Part shown: piece after piece, positions 1 to 12,817 of the stretch
How positions within the stretch are numbered: the first letter of the stretch is position 1
Layout: each line of letters begins with the position of its first letter
Origin: Bacilli bacterium
GTDB taxonomy: Bacteria > Bacillota_I > Bacilli_A > RF39 > UBA660
Length of the DNA: 64,000 nucleotides
Assembly (NCBI GenBank): GCA_050948885.1
Contig: JBMNER010000003.1
Location: forward strand, 93,826-157,825
Reading direction: 5' to 3'
The notes under the pieces: generated by a model
The model's input: the letters and a program-made list of their open reading frames with translations, nothing else
What the model was told of the DNA's origin: nothing
The model's database searches: none
Position numbers and translations under genes: made by a program

Positions 1-723
1 ATAATTACATACTTTTTCTAATTGCTCTTTACTTGTATCAAAATTATATATTTCTATTCCATCAATATAAGGTTTACAGATTTCTAATATCTCTTTGATA
101 TTATTTCCATAATGATATGGATGAGCTAAAAAAACCTGGCCCCTATTCTCGTTAATAATTTTATACAAATCTTTTAATTTAGGCCATACTATACTCATAT
201 CTAAATAAAAATCAAAACTATTATCAATTGTGCTCCGTCTATAAAAATCACTAACACTATTTATATTTTGTTTTTCTAAATATTTTTTAGTTCCTTCGCT
301 TTCCATCATCATTCTAAATATTGCTTGATGGGCAAATTCATTACTTGGGTTATAAGTATTCAAGTTTTCTATAGCAATACCCTTTTTATTTGCTATTTCT
401 ATTAAAGCATTAAATATCTTCTTTTGACGCACGTCAATTGTTTGGTACTGTTTTTCAACTCATTTATTTATTATATCTAAATTGAAACCATAACAAAGAA
501 AATCAAAAGTCTTATTATTGACTATAGCATCGGCTTCTATTCCATATAATATAGTTCCCTTAAAATTGTTCTTGGCTTGATCTAAGTTATAATACGCTCT
601 TACTGTATTATGATCAGTAATAGATATGTACTTTACACCAGATTCTGAGCAAAGATTCAATATATCATTTATATCTTTTTTCCCCTCTAACGAACATTTA
701 GAGTGTATGTGTAAATCTATCAT
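1..723 (-). pseudogene. PHP-domain phosphoesterase interrupted by one in-frame TGA (460-462); its 3' end runs off the window start
   Basis: ORF 460..723 (MIDLHIHSKCS...) continues in the same frame for 153 more sense codons (VEKQYQTIDVRQKK...FLAHPYHYGNN...EQLEKVCNY); I translated this by hand from 459 down to 1. Confidence 0.55.
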
Positions 724-1840: not shown

Positions 1841-1867
1841 ATGGTCGGAAAGACAAGATTTGAATTT
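1841..1867. repeat. 27-bp degenerate copy (23/27 identical) of the tRNA-Pro 3' end at 7743..7769; putative att remnant
   Basis: atggtcggaaagacaagatttgaattt versus atggtcgggaagacaggatttgaacct. Confidence 0.5.
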
Positions 1868-1991
1868 AACTATACTTATTTGTTTTTTCCTTATTAAATA
1901 AGGGTTGTTTTTTCATAATTCCCATAAAATCCACTCTTTTTATTTATTGTGGAGTCATTCTGGAGTCAAGATTAATACAAACTAAAATAAT

Positions 1992-2243
1992 TTATTCTGC
2001 TATATTAATACCATATTTTATCAAAAAAATATTTTGCTCTTCAGAATATTTTTTTCTTTCTTTCATCGCTTCATTAGTAGCATGCCTAAAACAATGTGTA
2101 ATTTTCCTATATTTCATAATATCTTCTTCTGTTACAAATCCAATAAAAAGATTTTTGTAATCTAATTTTATGAATTTTTCGTTTTTCTTTAACATATTCT
2201 CAATTAAATTGCATAATTCTTGTAGCTTTTCATCTGTAGACAT
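1992..2243 (-). CDS. hypothetical protein
   Basis: ORF only; no motif recognised. Confidence 0.3.
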   Translation of the reverse strand: MSTDEKLQELCNLIENMLKKNEKFIKLDYKNLFIGFVTEEDIMKYRKITHCFRHATNEAMKERKKYSEEQNIFLIKYGINIAE

Positions 2244-2344
2244 TTTTTCAAAAGTAGCATCTCTTGTAGAAATTGACTTAATTCTTTTATTTACTTCAAC
2301 GTTTAAATGATATTTATCCTGCTTGATAAAATTTAATGAATCTA

Positions 2345-2674
2345 TTAATTCTTTTCTTTGGGGCCATTCAACCTTAGCATATATTTTTCTTTTTTTTGAC
2401 TATAAGCTCGTATTTGATTATACGAAAAATCAAGCAATGATTTTGGACGACTTAATGCAGTTGGAAACTCTTCTATTAGATATCCTTTACTATATAAAAA
2501 ATAGCACATAAATAAAAAGAGTTCACAATCTTTAGCGGCTTTATCATCTGGCGGCTTTCTTAGTTCTTTGAGTTTTTCAATTACATCTTGATTATCAAAA
2601 AATTTTATATTACAAGTGCTATTAATTAAATTATAATAGTATTTATAGTGATACTCATCTTCGCTAATATTCAT
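2345..2674 (-). CDS. hypothetical protein
   Basis: ORF only. Confidence 0.3.
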   Translation of the reverse strand: MNISEDEYHYKYYYNLINSTCNIKFFDNQDVIEKLKELRKPPDDKAAKDCELFLFMCYFLYSKGYLIEEFPTALSRPKSLLDFSYNQIRAYSQKKEKYMLRLNGPKEKN

Positions 2675-2718
2675 AATAAAAAATTAACGTAAATCAATCA
2701 TAATATCCCTCTAAATAA

Positions 2719-3630
2719 TCACATTATATTATCAATCTCTTTTGCTATCGCTCTAATTACAGGTACTGATACACTATTACCAAACTGCTTATATGCTTGC
2801 ACGTCATTAACAACAATTTTAAAGCTTTCTGGAAACCCTTGTAATCTAGCTGCTTCACGTGGTGTTAATTTTCGTGGATTTTTATCTTTTTGATTTATTA
2901 ATATTTCTGATCCATCCTTATAATATCTTGCTGATATTGTGTTAGTATAAGGTGATTTATGATCAAATAAAGAGTACCCAAACCCATTGCCTTTTGACAT
3001 ATGCTCTTTTTTCCTTCGTTGGTGCCCAGCCCATAGTTTATCTGATATAGTATATTTTTCGTCTACATTTTTATCTAAAATTTGTCCAACACGAGTAACT
3101 ATATAGCTTGGTTTTGGAAAGTTAAATTTCCTTCTCTTATCTCTAATAGCAACCATATATACTCTCTCTCGGTTTTGTGGGATACCAAAGTCTTTTGAAT
3201 TATATATTTGAAAAAAGAAATTATACCCCATCTTTTCAAATTCAGTTTTTACCATCATATAAATTAAATTATTATTGCTTGTATAAAATCTTTTCACATT
3301 TTCTAAAAAAACAACTTTAGGTTTATGCTCTTTGACAATCTTTATTATATCAAAAATAAATGTTCCCCTCTCATCTTCAAGTCCTTTTTTTAATCCAGCT
3401 TGAGAAAAAGGCTGACAAGGAAATCCCGCTAATAACAAATCATGTTTAGGAATATCTCTTGGTTTTATTGTTTTTATATCACCGTATGGTGTGTCGTTAA
3501 AATTTGCTTTATATGTTTCAACAGCAAATTTATCTATTTCGGAACTAAAGACACATTCATAGCCTAATTCTTCAAAAGGAATTCTAATTCCACCTATTCC
3601 CGCAAATAAATCAATAAATTTTACTGCCAT
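2719..3630 (-). CDS. DNA (cytosine-5)-methyltransferase (type II modification subunit)
   Basis: motif I FAGIGG, motif IV PCQPFS, ENV, QNRERVY; short target-recognition domain. Confidence 0.85.
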   Translation of the reverse strand: MAVKFIDLFAGIGGIRIPFEELGYECVFSSEIDKFAVETYKANFNDTPYGDIKTIKPRDIPKHDLLLAGFPCQPFSQAGLKKGLEDERGTFIFDIIKIVKEHKPKVVFLENVKRFYTSNNNLIYMMVKTEFEKMGYNFFFQIYNSKDFGIPQNRERVYMVAIRDKRRKFNFPKPSYIVTRVGQILDKNVDEKYTISDKLWAGHQRRKKEHMSKGNGFGYSLFDHKSPYTNTISARYYKDGSEILINQKDKNPRKLTPREAARLQGFPESFKIVVNDVQAYKQFGNSVSVPVIRAIAKEIDNIM

Positions 3631-3641
3631 TAATTTTCACC

Positions 3642-4319
3642 TCACTTATCCCAATAATTTAATACTTCCGGTATGTTTTTATAAAAATAATATTCAAAAG
3701 ATATCACATTATGATCCTTACTAAATTTAGTTTCTTTAATATTCTTTAACACTACTAAAATAATATTGTGCATTGCCATCTGTTTTATTTTAGCACCAGC
3801 TATATCTTCGTCAACAGTTAGCAAATAAATATTGGGTAAATTAGATCTTTGTACTTCTTCTACTACTTCTTGCCAACGTTCTCTTAAAGTTGTTTTCATA
3901 CTACCAACAACTGTCTTATTTCTATAATCATTAAAAGCTTGGATGCTAGGCAATACGGAATCTACAACTTTCCCTAATCCTAGTTTTTCAAAAGCTAATT
4001 TACCAATTTGAGCTTGCGAATCATATGAATAACCAAGTAATTCATATAGGGTATAAATTATACTTTCAAAAGTACTACCCGCTCTGCTCCTTCTAGATTG
4101 AGTATTACTTAACGATAATTGATAAATATATGGGTAAATTTTACCAGCATATGTACTAAATTCTTCATTTATCCTATTTCTAAATTCAGTTATATTTAAT
4201 TCTTTAGAAAAATCCTTTTCGAGATTATTTACTATTTCACTTAATATTTCTTTTGGATAATCAAATTCTAAACCAATTTGCTTTAATATAATTTCATTAA
4301 ATCTTATTTCTTGCTCCAA
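3642..4319 (-). CDS. putative type II restriction endonuclease partnered with the C5-MTase
   Basis: same strand, 11-bp gap to the methyltransferase gene, island context; family not recognisable by eye. Confidence 0.45.
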   Translation of the reverse strand: MEQEIRFNEIILKQIGLEFDYPKEILSEIVNNLEKDFSKELNITEFRNRINEEFSTYAGKIYPYIYQLSLSNTQSRRSRAGSTFESIIYTLYELLGYSYDSQAQIGKLAFEKLGLGKVVDSVLPSIQAFNDYRNKTVVGSMKTTLRERWQEVVEEVQRSNLPNIYLLTVDEDIAGAKIKQMAMHNIILVVLKNIKETKFSKDHNVISFEYYFYKNIPEVLNYWDK

Positions 4320-4537
4320 AAAACATCATATACTTCTTGTCTCAATATCATAATTAATTGTGATATGTTTTGATTTTTCAAATATTCTTTTATTAATTCT
4401 GAATTCTTCATACATACAAGTTCAACGGTTTCTTTTGCATTTGTTATGTATTTATTGCGTCCATCACGTATATAATGTGTAAGCTTTTTTTCTTCTTCAA
4501 TAGATAATTTAATATTTTCTTCCAACTTATTATTCAT
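4304..4537 (-). CDS. small hypothetical protein
   Basis: ORF only. Confidence 0.3.
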   Translation of the reverse strand: MNNKLEENIKLSIEEEKKLTHYIRDGRNKYITNAKETVELVCMKNSELIKEYLKNQNISQLIMILRQEVYDVFWSKK

Positions 4538-4552
4538 AACTACCTCCTATAT

Positions 4553-4894
4553 TTAAATTTTTTTAATAAAATCTATTATTTTTATTAGGGTTTTCTTACT
4601 TGGTATTTCTCTATACTTCTTATAATAATATTCCTTAATATTTTCCATTAATTCTTTAGCTTCTTTATCAATATCCAAACCTTTTTCAAAATCAGGAGCT
4701 AATCCTAATAAATCTCTAACATCTATTTTGTAATAGTCAGCTATTTTTTCAAGAGTATAAAATTCAGGATATGACATCCCTGTTTCATAATTACCATATG
4801 CTGATCTTTTAATATTTAACTCTTCAGCGAGTTTATACTGACTAACACCTTTTAGTTCACGCATTTTTTTCAAATTTGAAGCTAATTTATCCAT
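4553..4894 (-). CDS. XRE-family helix-turn-helix transcriptional regulator (controller or repressor-like)
   Basis: LKKMRELKGVSQYKLAEELNIKRSAYGNYETG is a Cro/C1-type HTH. Confidence 0.7.
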   Translation of the reverse strand: MDKLASNLKKMRELKGVSQYKLAEELNIKRSAYGNYETGMSYPEFYTLEKIADYYKIDVRDLLGLAPDFEKGLDIDKEAKELMENIKEYYYKKYREIPSKKTLIKIIDFIKKI

Positions 4895-5036
4895 ACCCTA
4901 TTACCTCCATATACATTATAAAACATATTGCAAAAAAAGACAATTAATTTTGTCTTTTATATTGCAAATTAATTTGTCCGTGTTATTGTGATTATAGGCA
5001 AATAAGATTGTCTATAATTTAAAAGGAGGTATTACT

Positions 5037-5216
5037 ATGAACGAAAATCAAAAAGTTTTTAACTGCAACGATGTCATGAAAATATTAAGATGTAAAAAGA
5101 GTAAAGCCTACGAAATTATTAAAGTATTAGATTATGAATTAAAAGAAAAAGGTTATTTGACAGTTAACGGTAAAATACCCAGCAGTTATTTATTTTATAG
5201 ATTAAATATTCAATAA
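5037..5216 (+). CDS. excisionase-like small DNA-binding protein (Xis-like)
   Basis: 59 aa, good RBS (aaaggagg), lies just upstream of the integrase remnant; putative HTH (VMKILRCKKSKAYEIIK). Confidence 0.45.
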   Translation: MNENQKVFNCNDVMKILRCKKSKAYEIIKVLDYELKEKGYLTVNGKIPSSYLFYRLNIQ

Positions 5217-5306
5217 TATTTAATCTTCTTGATATAAACCAATAATTAGATATTAAAGATAACGAGATGTTTTTATTTAACCAAAACAAATCACAAAAGA
5301 AGGAGG

Positions 5307-5650
5307 ATGGTGTTAATGCCTATTAAAAAAATGCATAATGGTACATATAAAGTAGATGTATCTTTAGGATCTGATCAATTATCTAACAAAAGAAAAAGTG
5401 TTGACAATCCAACCAAAGGAAACTCTTAGAAGAAATTTTAAATATTATCAAAGAATGGCAGGTTCAAAGGATATTAGATTACATAACTTAAGACATTCAC
5501 ATGTAGCATTATTAATAAATCTAGGACGAGATCCCTAACTATTAAAAAGCGATTAGGTCATTCTGATATTACTATTACTTTAAACACCTATGGACACCTT
5601 TATGATGATGCACAAAAGAAGTTAGCGGATAAATTGGATGAAATATAAAA
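5307..5650 (+). pseudogene. tyrosine recombinase (integrase) remnant with internal deletion and stops
   Basis: the N-terminal piece MPIKKMHNGTYKVDVSLG...KRKS is joined directly to C-terminal catalytic fragments LRHSHVALLINLG and HSDITITLNTYGHLYDD, in different frames with stops. Confidence 0.55.
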
Positions 5651-5654
5651 AGTG

Positions 5655-7557
5655 TTATGCGCTTTCTTTTTTATACTCAAACATTTTTTTGATAATACAA
5701 ATTTCATAATCCAAATCATCAATTGAAACATTAGCTGCAAAATTAAAAGGTTGTATTTGATCATAATAATGACCGTTTTGATTTAACATCACTTTCATTT
5801 GCATTAATTTAGTCCTATCAACTTCAGGATAACAATTTATTTTAGGAGTTTTCCCTTTAGGATATAAATAATCAATCTTTGCTCCAAAAGTTTCCTTTTT
5901 AGTTAATTCACACAGAATATCTTTATTATCCTTAAACGCTTCATAGAATTTCTTCTCAATCCAAACCCGTATACCAATAATTAATAAAATTTTTATATAA
6001 ATCATTTCTTCAAAATTTTTTTCAATATAATCACTAGCATCAAAAGAATCTATCATTTCAACAAAATACTCATTTGTTAAATCAACATAATCTGAACCTA
6101 CTTTAAACCTAAAGGTAAAGGGACTATCATAATGAAAAACCTTGTGTCCTTTATAATTTTTGTCTTCCAATTCCCTTGATACTAAGAGCAACAAGTATTT
6201 ATCTTTGTCGTATTTTTTTATGATGTTTAAAATACCATAATCACTTGTACTTATTTTCTTTATGTATCGCACGCCCTTATAAACATCAAAATATTTTAAA
6301 TTGAATAACCACTTTAGTTGAGAATTTAATATATTAATTGTTTCAATATTGTGTGTAAAAACATGGACTTTATTTTCTTTTGTCAGGGATGCTATTTCAT
6401 ACATTATTTTATATTGGTTCGTCATATCAAAACTACTTATCGGATCATCAATAACTAAAATATCTTTATTATTAATTCTAAACCCGTATAACTTAACAAT
6501 AATTAAAAGTAAGTTAATTTCACCCGTACTATAACTATCTATTTTCCTTCCCTTTTTCGGAATAAACTCAATTTGATAGTTTTCATCATCAAAAATAATT
6601 TCTTTAAAATCAAATTTTTTGTTTATATAACCTTTAATCAAAGTCTCTTCAGCTTTTAAGACTTTATATTGTTCTTCCTTTACACTTAATAATTTTTTAA
6701 TTTTATTAGTTAGTTTAGAAATTTCTTTATATGCTTTTTCAAACAATTTACGGTTATCCTGATTACCATTACATAAAAAATAATCCAAAATTTCTTTATT
6801 ATCCATTGATTTAACAGTCTTAACTATATTATTTAAAATCTCCGCGTGCCTTTTATTAGTCTTATCAAAATTAAATCCAGCAAATAGATTATCTTTAATT
6901 TCTGAGAGTTTTTCCATTTTGGTAGTTATAATTGCCAAAATTTTTTTACCGGTAGTCCCACATACTGGGCATTCATCAGTTTCTTCATCAACAATTTTTA
7001 ACAAATTATCTAGCGTTTTTTAAATATACACTTTTTAGATTGTTTATTTCTTCTTCTACATTACTCACTCCTTTTATCCTTTTATAGTTTTTTACAGTAC
7101 AATTGATATAATCTGATGGAATATTTTGGTTTATTTCATTTAATCTTTCCTTACTCAATGTAAAACTATCTATTTGTTTTGATGATTGAATCTCTTCAAA
7201 TAAGATATCTATTTGTTTAGCAACTGTTGCATTAATGCCAGCTTGTTTAAACTGTGAATCGATTGATAAATCTTGTTGAATTATTTTAAGGTGATTTTGT
7301 AAATTTTCAATTTCTGCAACTTTAGCTGCTATTACTATACTACCCTTTATTTTTATAAAATCTTCCTTCATTCTATCAACATCAAAGTAATCTATTCTAT
7401 TTGAAAAATCACTATTGACAATGTAATTATAAATACTGGTTTTACCTATTCCATTGTAACCAAAATAAACAGTCGAATCCTCTTCAAGATTGATATTAAA
7501 ATCTGAATCAAATTTTAAGTATTTTAAATTATCATTTAAAACTTTACTATCAAACAT
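5655..7557 (-). pseudogene. SMC/Rad50-like ABC ATPase (about 630 aa if joined) split by a frameshift in a homopolymer (T6 at 7006..7011)
   Basis: N-terminal part has Walker A GYNGIGKTS. C-terminal part has a CPVCG zinc-hook-like motif, signature-like YSTGEINLL, Walker B ILVIDDPISSFD and H-loop VFTHN. Removing one A restores SVYLK-TLDNLLKIVDEE. Confidence 0.55.
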
Positions 7558-7705
7558 AATCTCACATCCTTAAATAAAAACAGCAGCACAAATTTCTTTG
7601 TACTGCTTCACAATTTAACTATAACACCATTCAATAACTTTTGCAAATATATTTCGGCAAAATTCTGCATCCTAGAGTCAAGACTGGAGTCATTTTCATT
7701 TTGAC

Positions 7706-7733
7706 ATTAAAAAACCCTTGTATTACAAGGGTT
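7706..7733 (-). terminator. rho-independent terminator after the tRNA-Pro..Asp cluster
   Basis: hairpin aacccttgtaatacaagggtt followed by a U-run on the minus strand. Confidence 0.45.
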
Positions 7734-7743
7734 AATTTACTTA

Positions 7744-7820
7744 TGGTCGGGAAGACAGGATTTGAACCTGCAACCCCCTGGTCCCAAACCAGGTGCACTG
7801 CCAAGTTGTGCTACTTCCCG
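7744..7820 (-). tRNA. tRNA-Pro (anticodon TGG)
   Basis: cloverleaf read by hand; starts CGGGAAG, ends CCA. Confidence 0.85.
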
Positions 7821-7946: not shown

Positions 7947-8022
7947 TGGTGGCTTCGGACGGAATCGAACCGCCGACACAAGGATTTTCAGTCCTTTGCT
8001 CTACCGACTGAGCTACGAAGCC
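7947..8022 (-). tRNA. tRNA-Phe (anticodon GAA)
   Basis: GGCTTCGTAGCTCAGTCGGTAGAGC...; anticodon loop cuGAAaa. Confidence 0.85.
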
Positions 8023-8025
8023 TCT

Positions 8026-8100
8026 TGGCGGTTCCGACGGGAATTGAACCCGCGATCTTCTGCGTGACAGGCAGACGTGTTAACCACTACACTACGGAAC
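8026..8100 (-). tRNA. tRNA-Asp (anticodon GTC)
   Basis: acceptor ggttccg/cggaacc; anticodon loop cuGTCac. Confidence 0.8.
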
Positions 8101-8175
8101 CCTCAACTTATTTAATTAATTGCCTTTATAGTATACTAGATATAGGTGGTTTTTGTCAATATGTTATACCTATAA

Positions 8176-9027
8176 TTAAGCATCATTATCAATATTAGTT
8201 TGACTCAAAAAACGATAAGAGATTAGAAAAGATATTATTAAAGCCATAATATTTAGAATATCTTTAAAAGTATAACTTAAACCCGGATATATTGCCGCAA
8301 TTGACCCTAGAACAAACCCTAAAATAAAACTATAAGTAGTGCGATAATGATTATCTAATAGATATTTTATTAATTTCACCATTACTACCGCTCCCATAAT
8401 CACACCTAGTAATACGGGGATTAACTCAATCATTTCTTGTTTTGTTAAGGTGAAAACATTTGCAATAATATGTAAAAAGTACTGATACATCCCTATTAAC
8501 ATGAGCATAAATGAGCTACTAATACCCGGTATAATTTTACCTGATATATAGATAAAACCAGTGAAAAATAGTAATATATTAGCAATAATACCCCCATCTA
8601 ACTTAGCCGCAATATTAATATCAATTATATTCTTACCAAGAACAAAAATGCCCATTGATACTAAGAAAGAAATCAAGAACACTACTACATTTAACCCTTT
8701 GGCATCTCTTTCTTTCATTTTTAAAAAAAGAACCGGTAAACTACCAAGAATTAAGCCCATAAAAATAAAACATAATTCAGCATGATATTCATAGAAAAAA
8801 TAATTTAGCATTTTACCAAATAAAATAATGCCTATAATAACCCCTATAAAAATAGGCATAAGATAAGAGATATGTTTCTTCCAATCAGCAAAGAAATTTG
8901 TTAGCGCGTGTATCATGTTTTCATAGATACCAAAGATAATCGCTAAAACACCGCCACTTACTCCCGGTAAAATCATCCCCGCCCCAATAATAATTCCCGC
9001 TATCACCAATTTAAGCTTTTTCATCAT
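8176..9027 (-). CDS. DUF368-family polytopic membrane protein (candidate undecaprenyl-phosphate recycling protein)
   Basis: two internal repeats with PGVSGG and PGISSS motifs; about 8 transmembrane segments. Confidence 0.55.
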   Translation of the reverse strand: MMKKLKLVIAGIIIGAGMILPGVSGGVLAIIFGIYENMIHALTNFFADWKKHISYLMPIFIGVIIGIILFGKMLNYFFYEYHAELCFIFMGLILGSLPVLFLKMKERDAKGLNVVVFLISFLVSMGIFVLGKNIIDINIAAKLDGGIIANILLFFTGFIYISGKIIPGISSSFMLMLIGMYQYFLHIIANVFTLTKQEMIELIPVLLGVIMGAVVMVKLIKYLLDNHYRTTYSFILGFVLGSIAAIYPGLSYTFKDILNIMALIISFLISYRFLSQTNIDNDA

Positions 9028-9211
9028 TAATAATCTCCCTATCGCCTAACCTTTATTTCTTTTTGATATTTATATCCTTACTTTATTAATTATACCATTT
9101 ATTAAGGTAATTTTATAAACAAAGAAATTATTATTAATTTTATATGTTAAAAGAAAGAATATATACAAAAAATTACCAATACTGGTAATTTTAAAGGCTA
9201 ATATTTTTTGT

Positions 9212-11077
9212 TTATTGTTTGATTAAACTATATATATCATTAGAAAACCCTACAGGATCATCAACCGATAAACCCTCAATTAATAATGATTGATTATATA
9301 AAATCTTAGTAATCGTTTTCAGTTTTTCCTTATCATTTTTAAAAGCTTTTTTGATGGTATTAAATATTTCATGTTCAGTATTAATCTCTAATATTTTATC
9401 CGTTTTAACATCTTGAGCATTGGGCATCATTTTTAATACCTTTTCCATTTCAATGGATACCGCGCCTTCATTTATTATACATACCGGATAGCTTCTTAAT
9501 CTTTCAGATGCTCTAATATCTTTTATCTTATCTTTTAATACTTCTTTCATAAAAGCGAAAATTTCTTTTGTTTGTTTATCGGCCGTTGTTTTTTTACTTT
9601 CCTCTAATTCACTACTTGATACTGACTTAAACTCTTTATCTTGATATTGGGATAACATTTTTACGGCAAACTCATCTATTTCATCGGTTAAATATAAAAT
9701 CTCATAATCTTTCTCTTTCGCAAATTCGGTTTGTGGTAGTTTATCAATCATATCCACATCTTCCCCAGTCGCATAATAAATATATTTTTGTTTTTTCTTC
9801 ATTCTTGATACATATTCATCTAAAGTAACTAATTTTTTCTCTCTTGATGAATAAAACATAATTAAGTCTTGTAAAAATTCTTTATTAACGCCCCAATCGG
9901 TATATACACCATATTTGATAACCCGACCAAAGTTTTTAAAGAAAGTTTCATATTTTTCACGTTCGTTTTTTAACATTTCTGATAATTCCTTTTTAATTTT
10001 ATCATTAATTCTTTTCGCAATAAATTGTAATTGACGATCATGTTGTAACATCTCTCTTGATATATTTAAAGAAACATCAGGAGAATCAACTAAACCTCTA
10101 ACAAAGCCAAAATAATCTGGTAATAGTTCAGCACATTTTTCAGTAATCAAAACATTATTAACATATAACTTTAAACCCTTTTGAAAATCTTTGGTAAAAA
10201 AATCAAATGGTAATTCAGTCGGAATATATAATAAAACATCATAGCTAACAACCCCTTCCGCACTAGTATGAATTACTTTTAAAGGTTTATCATAACCAAA
10301 TTTTTGTTCAAGATAAAAATTCTCATAATCTTCTTCTTTTAATTCCTTTTTCTTTTTACGCCAGATAGGAATCATACTATTAATTGTTTCGTCTTCTTGA
10401 TATTCTTCAAACTCATCTTTATTATCTTTTTTAGGCCTTGATTTAGTTGTTTTCATTATAATCGGATGTTTTATAAAATCAGAATATTTTTTTATTAACC
10501 ACCTTAAATGATACTCCTCAAGAAAATCATCATATTTTTCTTCTTTTTCGTTTTCCTTAATGGTTAAAATAATATCGGTACCAATATTATCTTTTTTCAC
10601 TTCCGAAATAGCATAACCATCAATACCACTAGATTCCCATTTATAAGCTTTATCAGTTTCGTTCTTTTTACTAATAACTACTACTTTACTAGCCACCATA
10701 AAGGCCGAATAAAAACCAACCCCAAATTGACCAATAATATCGTTCGAATCTTTAATCTTATTTTCTAATTTAAAAGCAAGAGTTCCACTTTTGGCAATAG
10801 TTCCTAAGTTTTCTTCTAATTCCTTCTTATCCATACCAATACCAGTATCAGTAATGGTTAAAGTTCTGTTTTTCTTATCAGCGGTGATTCTAATATATAA
10901 ATCATCCCGGCTATATTTTTTCTTTTTATCAGTTAATAAAAAATAATGACGTTTATCTAAAGCATCACTAGCATTTGATATAAGCTCCCTTAAAAATATT
11001 TCCTTATGCGTATAAATAGAATTAATCATAATATCTAATAATCTTTTTGATTCCGCCTTAAATTGTTTTTTAGCCAT
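9212..11077 (-). CDS. htpG: molecular chaperone HtpG (Hsp90)
   Basis: [15 protein letters not shown]-binding motif; GTIAKSGT; 621 aa. Confidence 0.95.
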
Positions 11078-11993: not shown

Positions 11994-12302
11994 ATGAATA
12001 TTAATGAATTAAACGAACTAATTGTTAAGCTGGATAAAGATTTGCCTAAAAAGATATTAGATGGTAAAGAAGTATTTGATTTTAAAGATTCAAATATAGT
12101 CCTTGGGGTAGCATGTATTGTAGTTTATAAAGATAAAATGCTCATTATGAAACGAAGCAATAAAGTAGCCGTATTTCAAAATAAATGGGCCGTAATTAGT
12201 GGTCACTTAGACTGCGTAAAACCAATTAAAGAAATCATATTAGAAGAAATAGCATTTAAGCTCCCTATTATTAGAAACTTTTTATCATATTCAATTAATT
12301 GA
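11994..12302 (+). pseudogene. NUDIX-like hydrolase N-terminal fragment, truncated
   Basis: GVACIVVYKDKMLIMKRS...WAVISGHLD NUDIX-fold start with an incomplete NUDIX box; overlaps the opposite-strand MTase fragment. Confidence 0.35.
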
Positions 12303-12817
12303 GCTATATATTCCCTAAATAAACTAAAGGGAGGATTAGTAACAACTATATCAGCTTCTTTTAATAATTTAATACATTCTTTACTTCTAAAATCGCCATC
12401 ATCTTTAAGTAAAGTTAATATGTTTTTTTTATTTTTTATTAAATGTTCTACATCAACTAAATCAACAGCCCCATCTTGGTTACAATCCACTATCTCATTT
12501 ATTTCTAATTTATAAGGTTTTTTATTGTTTGTTTTTTTTATTTCTAATTCCTTTACATCAAATAAAGATAACTGAACATGAGATATAGAAGAATCAGTAT
12601 AACATGTAGTAATTATTTTTTTTAATCCAAGAACATTAAAATTCATCGCAAAATATTTAAAGAAATTGCTCTCAAAAGGATCATCACAATTACAAATGAC
12701 TATTTTATCTTTAAAATGTTCTTTATAATATTTAAGTTCTTTTTCTATATCAGATAATTGTGTATAAAATTCATCGTTCTTGTCCTTTTTTGCCTTTTGT
12801 AAATTTTTATTTGCCAT
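12203..12817 (-). pseudogene. EcoRI-methylase-family N6-adenine DNA methyltransferase, C-terminally truncated orphan
   Basis: N-terminal KAKKDKNDEFYTQ...CNCDDPFESNFFKYF and motif IV VVTNPPF; only 204 aa, no cognate endonuclease. Confidence 0.45.

What the first reader, a model, noticed from the sequence alone, without database searches (positions are those of the whole stretch)
1841..7820. Decayed integrative island at tRNA-Pro marked by a partial direct repeat of the tRNA 3' end
A 27-bp sequence at 1841..1867 matches the 3' end of tRNA-Pro (7743..7769) at 23 of 27 positions in direct orientation. This is the classic attL/attR arrangement of elements that integrate into a tRNA 3' end. The roughly 5.9 kb between carries a C5-MTase plus putative endonuclease, an XRE-type HTH, an Xis-like gene, an integrase reduced to N- and C-terminal fragments, and an SMC-like ATPase. 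The element is therefore immobilised (no intact integrase) but still carries a possibly active R-M system.
Basis: seen in the sequence. Interest (0 to 1): 0.6.

Follow-up and report, generated by a model that had tools for sequence, protein, structure and literature searches.

The report
Decayed defence island at tRNA-Pro
A 5.9-kb fossil of a small integrating mobile element sits beside a proline tRNA gene in an uncultured Bacilli genome; its integrase, restriction enzyme and an ATPase are all broken, so it is an ordinary kind of relic, though it reveals a small family of elements that carry different anti-phage genes to the same tRNA site.

Summary
The repeat is real. Window 1841-1867 matches the 3' end of tRNA-Pro(UGG) (7743-7769) at 23/27. 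The true identity block is 24 nt (22/24), running from the T-loop through CCA plus one base. Every mismatch is G/C to A/T in the distal copy.

Between the copies lies a decayed integrative element. It has an XRE repressor, an ICEBs1-like Xis, and a tyrosine integrase that has lost about 254 internal codons and carries a frameshift. Paired GGAGTCA arm-type repeats sit just inside both ends.

Relatives in other Bacilli/Mollicutes MAGs share this XRE-Xis-Int backbone, the arm region and the tRNA-Pro site. Their cargo differs: OLD nuclease, GmrSD, Shedu. Two of them have an intact 360-aa integrase.

- The 77-aa ORF is the N-terminus of the Ecl18kI-like restriction enzyme. It is frameshifted here (T6); two other samples have an intact T7 allele. 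Only the C5 methylase is intact in this window.
- The Rad50/SMC-type ATPase is also split by a homopolymer frameshift.

One metagenome contig lacks the island through a deletion between 12-bp repeats.

Verdict: a new member of a known kind, with modest interest.

The parts
1841..1864 (-). attR core: the displaced, decaying copy of the tRNA-Pro 3' end (T-loop through CCA, plus 1 nt)
   Evidence: It matches 7743-7766 at 22/24. It is 21/23 to tRNA-Pro and 16/23 or less to the other tRNAs. Chromosomal DNA identical in all strains begins immediately to its left.
1863..1874 (.). 12-bp direct repeat AATTTAACTATA; left endpoint of the island deletion seen in contig L026
   Evidence: The second copy is at 7612-7623.
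1950..1968 (-). Two arm-type repeats TGACTCCA, 11 nt apart start to start (the 'P arm')
   Evidence: Four of the five TGACTCYA sites in the 64-kb window lie at the two island ends, all on the minus strand. The block is about 88% conserved in the Shedu-carrying variant L005, while the surrounding sequence is unrelated.
1992..2243 (-). 83-aa ORF, no recognisable family (cargo)
2345..2674 (-). 109-aa ORF, no recognisable family (cargo); frameshifted in L043, L044 and L046
2719..3630 (-). Intact C5 cytosine DNA methyltransferase (303 aa)
   Evidence: Pfam DNA_methylase, E 5e-104. TIGR00675 dcm. M.HhaI, E 4e-70. The FxGxG, PCQ, ENV, QxRxR and GN motifs are readable in the translation.
3642..4537 (-). 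Ecl18kI/PspGI/EcoRII-C-family type II restriction endonuclease gene, frameshifted (T6 run at 4318-4323) into ORFs of 77 and 225 aa
   Evidence: EcoRII-C domain. R.Ecl18kI, E 1e-31, with the TTLRERWQEV block conserved. It is a single 298-aa ORF with T7 in L043 and L046.
4553..4894 (-). XRE/Cro-CI-type HTH regulator (113 aa), part of the element backbone
   Evidence: HTH_3. RstR-like repressor. About 81% DNA identity to L011 across XRE, the intergenic region, Xis and the integrase 5' end.
5037..5216 (+). Excisionase-like gene (59 aa)
   Evidence: NCBIfam ICEBs1 excisionase, E 4e-13, below the curated cutoff. phrog_989. It lies directly upstream of int in L011, L033 and L045.
5316..5648 (+). Tyrosine integrase remnant: residues about 1-28 and about 283-360 of a 360-aa protein, with an extra frameshift
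   Evidence: Translations. Alignment to the intact L033 and L011 integrases. The 761 bp at L011 2699-3459 are replaced by 13 bp at window 5399-5411.
5655..7557 (-). Rad50/SMC-type ABC ATPase (AAA_13-like) with a CxxC motif and a C-terminal helical domain; split by a 1-nt insertion in the A6 run at 7016-7021
   Evidence: ORFs of 183 and 449 aa. Homologs are single proteins of 623-632 aa. There are weak AAA_13, PDC-S06 and PtuA hits. The AF2 model of homolog P0021 matches Smc, Rad50, AriA and retron ATPase heads.
7582..7646 (-). Conserved part of the tRNA-proximal arm: promoter-like TTGCAA-17-TATAGT, then an 11-bp GAAA hairpin with a U-run, immediately upstream of the cargo gene
   Evidence: It is conserved in L011 and partly in L045, ahead of unrelated cargo genes.
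7612..7623 (.). Second copy of the 12-bp repeat AATTTAACTATA; right endpoint of the L026 deletion
7673..7692 (-). Two arm-type repeats (TGACTCTA and TGACTCCA) on the tRNA side (the 'P-prime arm'). Spacing is 12 nt here because of a window-specific extra G at 7682; it is 11 nt in all other contigs and relatives
7713..7733 (-). Intrinsic terminator for the tRNA operon, supplied by the element
   Evidence: It occupies the same position in L011 and L045.
7743..7820 (-). tRNA-Pro(UGG). Its last 23 nt plus 1 nt (7743-7766) form the attL core

Best explanation
Window 1841-7766 is the fossil of a small integrative element of about 5.9 kb.

How it arrived (inferred from anatomy and from relatives):
- A phage-type tyrosine integrase with an arm-binding N-terminal domain recombined the element's attP with the chromosomal tRNA-Pro(UGG) gene.
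- The shared segment runs from the 7-nt T-loop to the CCA end.
- The element therefore supplies the working 3' end of the tRNA and a terminator (attL, 7743-7766).
- The original 3' end was pushed 5.9 kb downstream (attR, 1841-1864), where it is decaying.
- Paired GGAGTCA repeats just inside both ends would be the integrase arm sites.
- An XRE repressor, transcribed divergently from xis-int, would have controlled excision.

Element layout (shown by comparison): the backbone is only XRE-Xis-Int plus the att arms. Cargo sits in two slots.
- Slot 1 lies between int and the tRNA-side arm. Here it holds a Rad50/SMC-type ABC ATPase.
- Slot 2 lies downstream of XRE. Here it holds an Ecl18kI-like CCNGG/CCWGG-type R-M system and two small ORFs.

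What has happened since (shown):
- The element is locked in place. The integrase has lost about 254 internal codons and has a frameshift, in every strain sampled.
- The cargo is eroding through homopolymer slips. The ATPase is split in all strains.
- The restriction gene is off (T6) in this window and most strains, and intact (T7) in two samples.
- The methylase is intact here and broken in one strain.
- In this window only the methylase, XRE and Xis remain as intact recognisable genes. The element now behaves as an immobile, dispensable defence-island remnant. One strain has deleted it between 12-bp repeats.
For: Repeat and tRNA.

Arm repeats: 4 of 5 TGACTCYA sites in 64 kb lie just inside the two ends, in one orientation.

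Integrase remnant: it aligns to residues 1-28 and 283-360 of intact 360-aa relatives. The RHR-box arginine region and the core-binding domain are missing.

Xis: ICEBs1-excisionase-like.

Family members:
- L011/L012/L013 have MTase, XRE / Xis, Int, then OLD nuclease, GGAGTCA x2, then tRNA-Pro. Their Int N-terminal half carries Pfam Arm-DNA-bind_4.
- L033 has an intact Int, 74% identical to the L011 reconstruction.
- L045 has an intact Int, a 716-aa gene and a GmrSD-like gene, GGAGTCA x2 with 11-nt spacing, then tRNA-Pro. It shares the Asp-Phe-Arg-Pro tRNA order and the VCA0040-like neighbour.

Same-species variation exactly at the junction: L005 and L006 carry a Shedu gene next to the same flank, with a conserved arm block and a different, less decayed core copy.

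Island loss: L026 lacks window 1875-7623. The sequence across 7612 is contiguous with the family-conserved arm of L011, so the window state is ancestral and L026 is derived.

Cargo identity and decay:
- REase.
- MTase.
- ATPase.

The int deletion and the ATPase split are shared by all 12 near-identical contigs.
Against: - No clean empty site (tRNA-Pro joined directly to the left flank) was found. The only island-free contig still keeps the decayed core and the tRNA-side arm.
- No circular or excised form, and no integrase activity, can be shown from sequence.
- The distal end of every relative is cut off by a contig end. A complete intact element with both att copies was therefore never seen.
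- The island's G+C (0.262) does not differ from its flanks.
- The role of the GGAGTCA repeats as arm sites is inferred from position, orientation and enrichment only.
- All comparison sequences are metagenome assemblies. Homopolymer lengths there are the least reliable feature, although each state recurs in independent samples.
- The 12-bp repeat next to the core is improbable by chance (about 0.005) and is not explained.
Confidence: 0.87

Rival explanations
1. The homopolymer frameshifts are reversible phase variation (ON/OFF switching of defence genes), not decay. The sites in question are REase T6/T7, the ATPase A6 run, the MTase A7/A8 run in one strain, and the int A-run in L011.
For: The REase tract state does not follow SNP haplotypes. 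L043 (T7) and L044 (T6) share one lineage, and the divergent L046 also has T7. All four indels lie in runs of 5-8 identical bases.
Against: - Tracts of 6-7 nt are short for efficient phase variation.
- The ATPase split is fixed in all contigs, with no ON allele seen.
- The integrase also has a 761-bp deletion, which is plain decay.
- One strain has lost the methylase frame as well, as expected once the nuclease is dead.
- Assembly error at homopolymers cannot be excluded.
Confidence: 0.12
2. The island is not truly immobilised. With Xis, both arm regions and both cores still present, it could be excised and moved in trans by an intact integrase from a related element in the same community.
For: Intact family integrases exist. 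Xis and the arm repeats are retained. A related element with different cargo occupies the same site in a co-occurring strain: L005 and L039 come from the same sample.
Against: - The attR core has 2 mismatches in 24, and the window has an extra base between the tRNA-side arm repeats.
- The same int deletion occurs at the same site in all 12 contigs, with no second location seen.
- The one loss event observed used 12-bp repeats, not the att cores.
Confidence: 0.1
3. The island is a composite of two or more independent insertions. For example, the ATPase could come from one event and the R-M/XRE/Xis/Int part from another.
For: The integrase is not adjacent to the tRNA; 1.9 kb of ATPase gene lies between them. 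Another strain has a serine-recombinase element stacked at the same tRNA.
Against: Three independent relatives have the same order: int, then a cargo gene on the opposite strand, then the conserved arm, then tRNA-Pro. The conserved arm starts right at the cargo start codon. The ATPase position is therefore a native cargo slot. No third copy of the tRNA fragment lies inside the island.
Confidence: 0.06
4. L026 is the ancestral state, and the 5.75-kb segment inserted at AATTTAACTATA, either as a 12-bp target duplication or as a 12-bp att core.
For: There is exactly one copy of the 12-mer in L026 and two flanking copies in the window. The pair is unlikely by chance (about 0.005).
Against: The sequence on both sides of the 7612-7623 copy is contiguous family-conserved arm sequence in L011. 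An insertion would have had to recreate that arrangement. L026 still carries the decayed core and the tRNA-side arm repeats, which only make sense as leftovers of the element.
Confidence: 0.04
5. The tRNA-like 24-mer is a chance match or a stray tRNA pseudogene fragment unrelated to integration.
For: It is short, and tRNA 3' ends resemble one another. tRNA-Met matches the tRNA-Pro 27-mer with 5 mismatches.
Against: Shuffles and simulations give 0 hits. The fragment is Pro-specific. It sits exactly where strain-specific sequence meets the shared flank. Arm repeats are present at both ends.
Confidence: 0.01

Closest known systems
tRNA-targeting tyrosine-integrase genomic islands and prophage-like elements, T-loop sublocation class (Williams 2002, PMC100330, as cited in PMC10121019)
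   Same: - The direct repeat is made of the tRNA 3' end, starting at the T-loop.
- The element restores the tRNA.
- The integrase is phage-type, about 35% identical to Clostridioides, Staphylococcus and Enterococcus phage integrases.
- There is an Xis, and arm-type repeats on both sides.
   Different: - It is tiny: the backbone is about 1.9 kb plus the arms.
- It has no replication, packaging or transfer genes.
- int is separated from the att site by a cargo slot.
- The integrase is destroyed here.
ICEBs1 regulatory/recombination module (ImmR-type XRE repressor, Xis, Int; integrates into the 3' end of a tRNA-Leu gene; from my own knowledge)
   Same: The Xis hits the ICEBs1 excisionase model (E 4e-13). 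An XRE repressor is transcribed divergently from xis. The integration site is a tRNA 3' end.
   Different: - The Xis score (48.7 bits) is below the family cutoff of 100.
- There is no ImmA protease, no conjugation genes and no relaxase.
- The gene order differs: here xis and int are co-directional.
Defence-system hotspots on integrated mobile elements: P2/P4 hotspots (PMC9122126) and the E. coli defence-island repertoire with 18 tRNA hotspots (PMC10121019)
   Same: A conserved element backbone has fixed slots holding interchangeable anti-phage genes: R-M, Shedu, OLD nuclease, GmrSD, ABC ATPase. The site is a tRNA.
   Different: The host group is different (uncultured low-GC Bacilli/'Mollicutes' MAGs). 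The element is much smaller than P4 or typical IMEs. No helper relationship is evident.
Ecl18kI/SsoII, PspGI and EcoRII-C restriction enzymes of the CCNGG/CCWGG group (PMC2577355)
   Same: The catalytic and recognition core aligns to R.Ecl18kI residues 101-252 (E 1e-31), including the block TTLRERWQEV that Ecl18kI also carries. It is paired with a C5 methylase.
   Different: - The intact form is 298 aa, with a different N-terminus and a shorter C-terminus than Ecl18kI (305 aa).
- It is frameshifted in this window.
- The methylase is a short, 303-aa M.HhaI-like enzyme.
- Specificity was not determined.
Defence-associated Rad50/SMC-type ABC ATPases: Pfam AAA_13 (PrrC/RloC-like), PADLOC PDC-S06, PARIS AriA, Septu/retron PtuA
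   Same: - The ABC head is interrupted by a coiled coil with a CxxC motif.
- Fold matches include Smc, Rad50, AriA and retron ATPases.
- Sequence hits are weak.
- Homologs sit beside type I R-M systems.
   Different: - The AAA_13 score (28.4) is below the gathering threshold (36).
- It is a single gene with no nuclease partner.
- The C-terminal helical domain, about 190 aa, is unassigned.
- It is frameshifted here.

Membership tests
tRNA-integrating tyrosine-recombinase element (genomic island) | Direct repeat of a tRNA 3' segment bounding the element, with an intact tRNA at one end | tested here: met
   22/24 (23/27), Pro-specific, with 0 hits in simulations.
tRNA-integrating tyrosine-recombinase element (genomic island) | Tyrosine integrase gene with a complete catalytic domain | tested here: not met
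   Only residues of about 1-28 and 283-360 remain, with a frameshift. The gene is recognisable but dead. Intact orthologues exist in L033 and L045.
tRNA-integrating tyrosine-recombinase element (genomic island) | Variable presence or content at the same chromosomal junction in related strains | tested here: met
   There is a Shedu variant (L005/L006) and a deletion variant (L026), with identical flanks.
tRNA-integrating tyrosine-recombinase element (genomic island) | Clean empty attB in a relative, or a circular attP form | tested here: inconclusive
   None was found in 1 metagenome scan and 7 exact-protein look-ups. Many contigs break at the tRNA cluster.
tRNA-integrating tyrosine-recombinase element (genomic island) | Arm-type integrase binding sites flanking the core | tested here: inconclusive
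   GGAGTCA pairs lie at both ends, are enriched, and are conserved in L011 and L045 with 11-nt spacing. Binding itself cannot be tested here.
Integrative conjugative / mobilizable element (ICE/IME) | Conjugation genes, relaxase or oriT | tested here: not met
   No such domain appears in any island ORF against Pfam, NCBIfam or PHROGs.
Prophage or phage satellite (PICI/P4-like) | Replication/primase, packaging or capsid-redirecting genes | tested here: not met
   None were found. There were no matches in IMG/VR with integrase or arm patterns.
Type II R-M system, Ecl18kI/PspGI/EcoRII-C group | C5 methyltransferase with all conserved motifs | tested here: met
   Pfam E 5e-104 over the full-length profile.
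Type II R-M system, Ecl18kI/PspGI/EcoRII-C group | Intact endonuclease ORF with the family catalytic/recognition core | tested here: not met
   The core is present, but the ORF is split at a T6 run in this window. It is intact in L043 and L046.
Type II R-M system, Ecl18kI/PspGI/EcoRII-C group | CCNGG or CCWGG cleavage and methylation specificity | not testable with these tools
   Site-avoidance statistics are weak. Window z = -2.0. There are 0 sites in the island against 2.7 expected, P = 0.07.
Pfam AAA_13 / PADLOC PDC-S06 ATPases | Score above the curated family threshold | tested here: not met
   AAA_13 scores 28.4 bits against a gathering score of 36. PDC-S06 gives E 3e-12 over a partial match only. 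The fold is Rad50/SMC-like.
ICEBs1 excisionase family (NF047858) | Score above the NCBIfam cutoff | tested here: not met
   48.7 bits against a cutoff of 100. It is related, not an equivalog.

The most novel reading that the evidence does not exclude
The window's relic belongs to a previously undescribed family of minimal integrative elements in uncultured low-GC Bacilli. A member needs only XRE-Xis-Int plus about 170-bp att arms, roughly 2 kb of backbone. The family targets the T-loop to 3' end of tRNA-Pro(UGG). It offers two fixed cargo slots for single-gene or two-gene anti-phage systems. The tRNA-side slot is fed by a conserved promoter-plus-terminator cassette built into the att arm. After the integrase is lost, the cargo is toggled or eroded by homopolymer slips. 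The REase T6/T7 tract appears to have changed state more than once.
Probability: 0.2. Interest if true: 0.5.

Novelty: new member of a known kind. Interest (0 to 1): 0.3.

Why it matters
For this genome, the result fixes the annotation:
- The tRNA-Pro gene has an element-derived 3' end and terminator.
- The 'hypothetical' 77-aa gene is the front of a dead restriction enzyme.
- The methylase is effectively an orphan.
- The two 'hypothetical' ATPase ORFs are one broken gene.

More generally, it gives a clean, dated series of how a defence island dies in place:
1. The integrase deletion and the ATPase frameshift are shared by every strain sampled, so they came earliest; their relative order is not resolved.
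2. The nuclease is polymorphic.
3. The methylase has gone in one strain.
4. The whole island has gone in another.

It also points to a compact element family that could be mined for new defence genes in poorly studied Bacilli from digesters and landfills. Candidates are the unannotated 623-632-aa ATPase family and the 716-aa partner of GmrSD. None of this is unexpected in kind.

Tried and rejected
- **Flanking gene in GTDB genomes.** A scan with the flanking APH-family gene found nothing. The species representative evidently lacks it.
- **IMG/VR.** A scan with an integrase alignment and two scans with conserved arm DNA patterns found nothing. The elements are therefore not represented as viral contigs.
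- **Empty site.** The single metagenome scan with the flank pattern gave one occupied contig and the L026 deletion variant, but no clean empty site.
- **The rest of the Shedu-variant island.** The Shedu protein exists only as the same partial sequence.
- **Rfam.** A search over the island found only the tRNAs.
- **Base composition.** It shows no foreign signature.
- **CCNGG avoidance.** Too weak to assign specificity.
- **Second relic at tRNA-Met or tRNA-Asn.** No 3'-end repeat was found there.
- **XRE as an R-M controller (C) protein.** I considered this and rejected it as the main role. XRE travels with Xis-Int at about 81% identity next to a different methylase in L011.
- **L026 as the ancestral empty site.** I considered this and rejected it.
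- **C-terminal domain of the ATPase.** A whole-chain fold search did not assign it, because the hits were dominated by the ABC head.

Full report
**1. The observation**

ARAGORN and Rfam place tRNA-Pro(UGG) at 7744-7820 on the minus strand. It is the last gene of an Asp-Phe-Arg-Pro cluster. Window 1841-1867 and 7743-7769 match at 23/27 in direct orientation.

Nothing else in the window, on either strand, comes within four mismatches. The next best match is another tRNA's 3' end, tRNA-Met, with five. Shuffles and second-order Markov simulations gave no hits. The fragment is specifically Pro-like: 21/23 against tRNA-Pro and 16/23 or less for the other twelve tRNAs.

The true homology is 24 nt, 1841-1864 versus 7743-7766, at 22/24. 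On the tRNA strand it reads TTCAAAT-CCTGT-CTTCCCG-A-CCA plus one base. That is the T-loop, the 3' T-stem, the 3' acceptor strand, the discriminator and CCA. All mismatches are G/C in the tRNA and A/T in the distal copy, as expected for a decaying non-functional copy in this AT-rich genome.

**2. What lies between the copies**

All genes are on the minus strand unless stated.

| Coordinates | Feature |
|---|---|
| 1992-2243 | 83-aa ORF, no family |
| 2345-2674 | 109-aa ORF, no family |
| 2719-3630 | intact C5 methylase |
| 3642-4537 | restriction endonuclease gene, read as two ORFs |
| 4553-4894 | XRE regulator |
| 5037-5216 (+) | Xis-like gene |
| 5316-5648 (+) | integrase fragments |
| 5655-7557 | ABC ATPase gene, read as two ORFs |

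The motif TGACTCYA occurs five times in the 64-kb window. Four of these lie as two pairs just inside the island ends, at 1950-1968 and 7673-7692, all in one orientation. A strong terminator at 7713-7733 follows the tRNA.

**3. The integrase is dead**

The remnant aligns to residues of about 1-28 and 283-360 of intact 360-aa relatives. At the DNA level, 761 bp of the homologous L011 gene are replaced by 13 bp at window 5399-5411. A further frameshift splits the C-terminal piece. The HxxR and catalytic Tyr regions survive. The first arginine box and the whole core-binding domain are gone. All twelve near-identical contigs from other samples carry the same lesion.

**4.

*Restriction enzyme.*
- The 225-aa ORF has an EcoRII-C domain. 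Its closest solved structure is R.Ecl18kI (E 1e-31), with the TTLRERWQEV block conserved.
- Ecl18kI, PspGI and EcoRII-C recognise CCNGG or CCWGG and flip the central base pair (PMC2577355).
- In contigs L043 and L046, from independent samples, the '77-aa ORF' and the 225-aa ORF are one 298-aa gene.
- The only difference is a T7 run where the window and most contigs have T6, at 4318-4323.
- The tract state does not follow SNP haplotypes. L043 (T7) and L044 (T6) share a lineage.

*ATPase.*
- Its homologs are single proteins of 623-632 aa.
- The window copy is split by one extra A in the run at 7016-7021. No intact allele was seen.
- An AlphaFold model of homolog P0021 (pLDDT 86) matches Smc, Rad50, AriA and retron-ATPase heads. 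It has a coiled-coil insert carrying the conserved CPxC, and an unassigned C-terminal helical domain.
- Sequence hits to AAA_13, PDC-S06 and PtuA are weak.
- P0021 sits beside type I R-M systems.

*Methylase.* It is intact here, but carries an A7-to-A8 frameshift in strain L002. That is tolerable only if the nuclease is already inactive.

**5. A family of related elements**

| Locus | Source | Layout |
|---|---|---|
| L011-L013 | 'Mollicutes bacterium' MAG and digester metagenomes | a different C5 methylase, XRE / Xis, Int (frameshifted at an A-run in all four contigs L011-L014), then an OLD-family nuclease on the opposite strand, then GGAGTCA x2, then tRNA-Pro |
| L033 | Bacilli MAG | Xis plus an intact 360-aa Int, then small cargo genes |
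| L045 | Bacilli MAG GCA_964407065.1 | XRE / Xis, intact Int, a 716-aa gene and a GmrSD-like gene, GGAGTCA x2 with 11-nt spacing, then tRNA-Pro |

L045 has the same tRNA order and the same VCA0040-like neighbour as the window.

The window shares about 81-86% DNA identity with L011 over XRE, Xis and the int ends. It shares about 74% over the 170-bp tRNA-side arm. The genes in between are unrelated. The arm alignment shows these features, in order:
- a hairpin;
- a CAAAYATATTTCG box;
- the GGAGTCA pair;
- a terminator;
- a core segment (24 nt plus the next few bases of the tRNA) identical in the window and L045 and differing at one position in L011.

The backbone is therefore XRE-Xis-Int plus the arms, and the element has two cargo slots. 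The L011 Int N-terminus carries Pfam Arm-DNA-bind_4, which fits the use of arm sites. The integrase is about 35% identical to integrases of Firmicutes temperate phages.

**6. Variation within the species at this exact junction**

Contigs carrying the identical APH-family flank gene show several states:
- Most have the same island.
- L005 and L006 instead carry a Shedu (SduA_C) gene. Its arm block is about 88% conserved. Its core copy is different and less decayed, with 1 mismatch. The chromosomal flank beyond the core is 100% identical.
- L026, found by the flank pattern, has the decayed core, then a single AATTTAACTATA, then the last 120 bp of the tRNA-side arm and tRNA-Pro. It lacks window 1875-7623.

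The two 12-mers (1863-1874 and 7612-7623) are the widest-spaced of only eight exact direct repeats of 12 bp or more in the island. They would share such a repeat by chance about 0.5% of the time. The sequence across 7612 is contiguous with the family-conserved arm in L011. The window state is therefore ancestral, and L026 is a deletion that did not use the att cores.

No clean empty site was found.

**7. Mechanism**

Shown:
- the repeat and the anatomy;
- homology to intact elements at the same tRNA;
- the lesions and their distribution among strains.

Inferred from the established behaviour of tRNA-targeting tyrosine integrases:
- Integration occurred by crossover within the shared T-loop to 3' end segment.
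- The element donated the functional tRNA 3' end and a terminator.
- The GGAGTCA repeats are arm sites.
- XRE and Xis controlled excision.

Order of decay, inferred from the distribution among contigs:
1. The integrase deletion and the ATPase frameshift came earliest, because they are shared by all; their relative order is not resolved.
2. The REase slip came next, because it is polymorphic.
3. The methylase slip (one strain) and loss of the whole island (one contig) came last.

**8. Comparison with known systems and verdict**

This is a textbook kind of object: a tRNA-anchored integrative island carrying defence genes. Such islands are documented at scale in E. coli, where 18 hotspots lie at tRNA loci (PMC10121019), and in P2/P4 hotspots (PMC9122126).
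- It is not an ICE, an IME, a prophage or a satellite by gene content.
- The family itself appears undescribed and unusually compact, but it is a new member of a known kind.
- The host is an uncultured 'Bacilli bacterium' MAG lineage. The window proteins are identical to NCBI MGI6309487-93.

Interest is modest. Its suggestion of a live R-M system is wrong for this window.

Noticed in passing
L002 3800-3880 and L035 12500-20180 (junction corresponds to window 7753): In one strain the sequence upstream of window 7753 is not the tRNA. It is an element of 7.6 kb or more carrying two serine recombinases (170 aa and 549 aa), a BglII-like endonuclease and a C5 methylase. That element abuts only the last 10 nt of tRNA-Pro (TTCCCGACCA). 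This suggests a second defence-carrying element stacked at the same tRNA. The far end could not be fetched.
   Followed up: partly
window 7674-7722: Among contigs that are otherwise 99.9% identical, this 50-bp patch has two sharply different alleles. The patch covers the tRNA-side arm repeats, the spacer and the terminator loop. There are 12 differences, with L015, L020 and L038 on one side and the rest on the other. In one allele the second GGAGTCA is changed to GGGGTCA. It looks like a short recombination or conversion tract at the att arm. The window alone has an extra G at 7682.
   Followed up: partly
window 7582-7646 (also L011 5372-5440): The conserved arm holds a promoter-like TTGCAA-17-TATAGT, followed at once by an 11-bp GAAA-loop hairpin with a U-run. 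The cargo start codon follows about 25 nt later, with no room for another promoter. Expression of whatever sits in this slot may therefore depend on terminator read-through. There is no covariation to test, because the stem sequence is conserved.
   Followed up: partly
L011 3095-3125 (and L012, L013, L014): The otherwise complete integrase of the OLD-nuclease element is split into 172 + 196 aa by a 1-nt slip in an A-run. The slip is identical in four contigs from different samples. This relative may therefore be immobilised too, or may use a programmed frameshift.
   Followed up: partly
P0021 and relatives (L027-L032, gene at 8001-9890): The 623-632-aa ATPase family has no Pfam assignment. One identical sequence occurs on more than 450 contigs, always beside type I R-M and other defence-like genes (AAA_14/DUF4143, SIR2 fragments). 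It is a candidate uncharacterised single-gene defence system.
   Followed up: partly
window 12203-12817 (minus strand): A 204-aa ORF with an EcoRI-methylase (N6-adenine) domain, apparently truncated, lies just downstream of the 3' end of tRNA-Met (13016). It may be a second decayed R-M relic at the other tRNA cluster. No tRNA-Met 3'-end repeat was found nearby.
   Followed up: partly
whole window: GATC is strongly under-represented: 94 observed against 162 expected under a second-order Markov model, z = -5.2. GGNCC and GGWCC are also low (z about -3). This hints at other, possibly past, restriction pressures in this lineage.
   Followed up: no
window 460-723 (minus strand): An 87-aa ORF carrying only the start of a PHP domain sits next to the APH-family kinase gene. 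It is probably a truncated gene, and it is conserved in all strains.
   Followed up: no
L045 6457-9850: In the related MAG, the Asp-Phe-Arg-Pro tRNA cluster is interrupted by an ABC-transporter pair between tRNA-Arg and tRNA-Pro, and by a 227-aa gene between tRNA-Phe and tRNA-Arg. The cluster itself is therefore a site of insertions.
   Followed up: no
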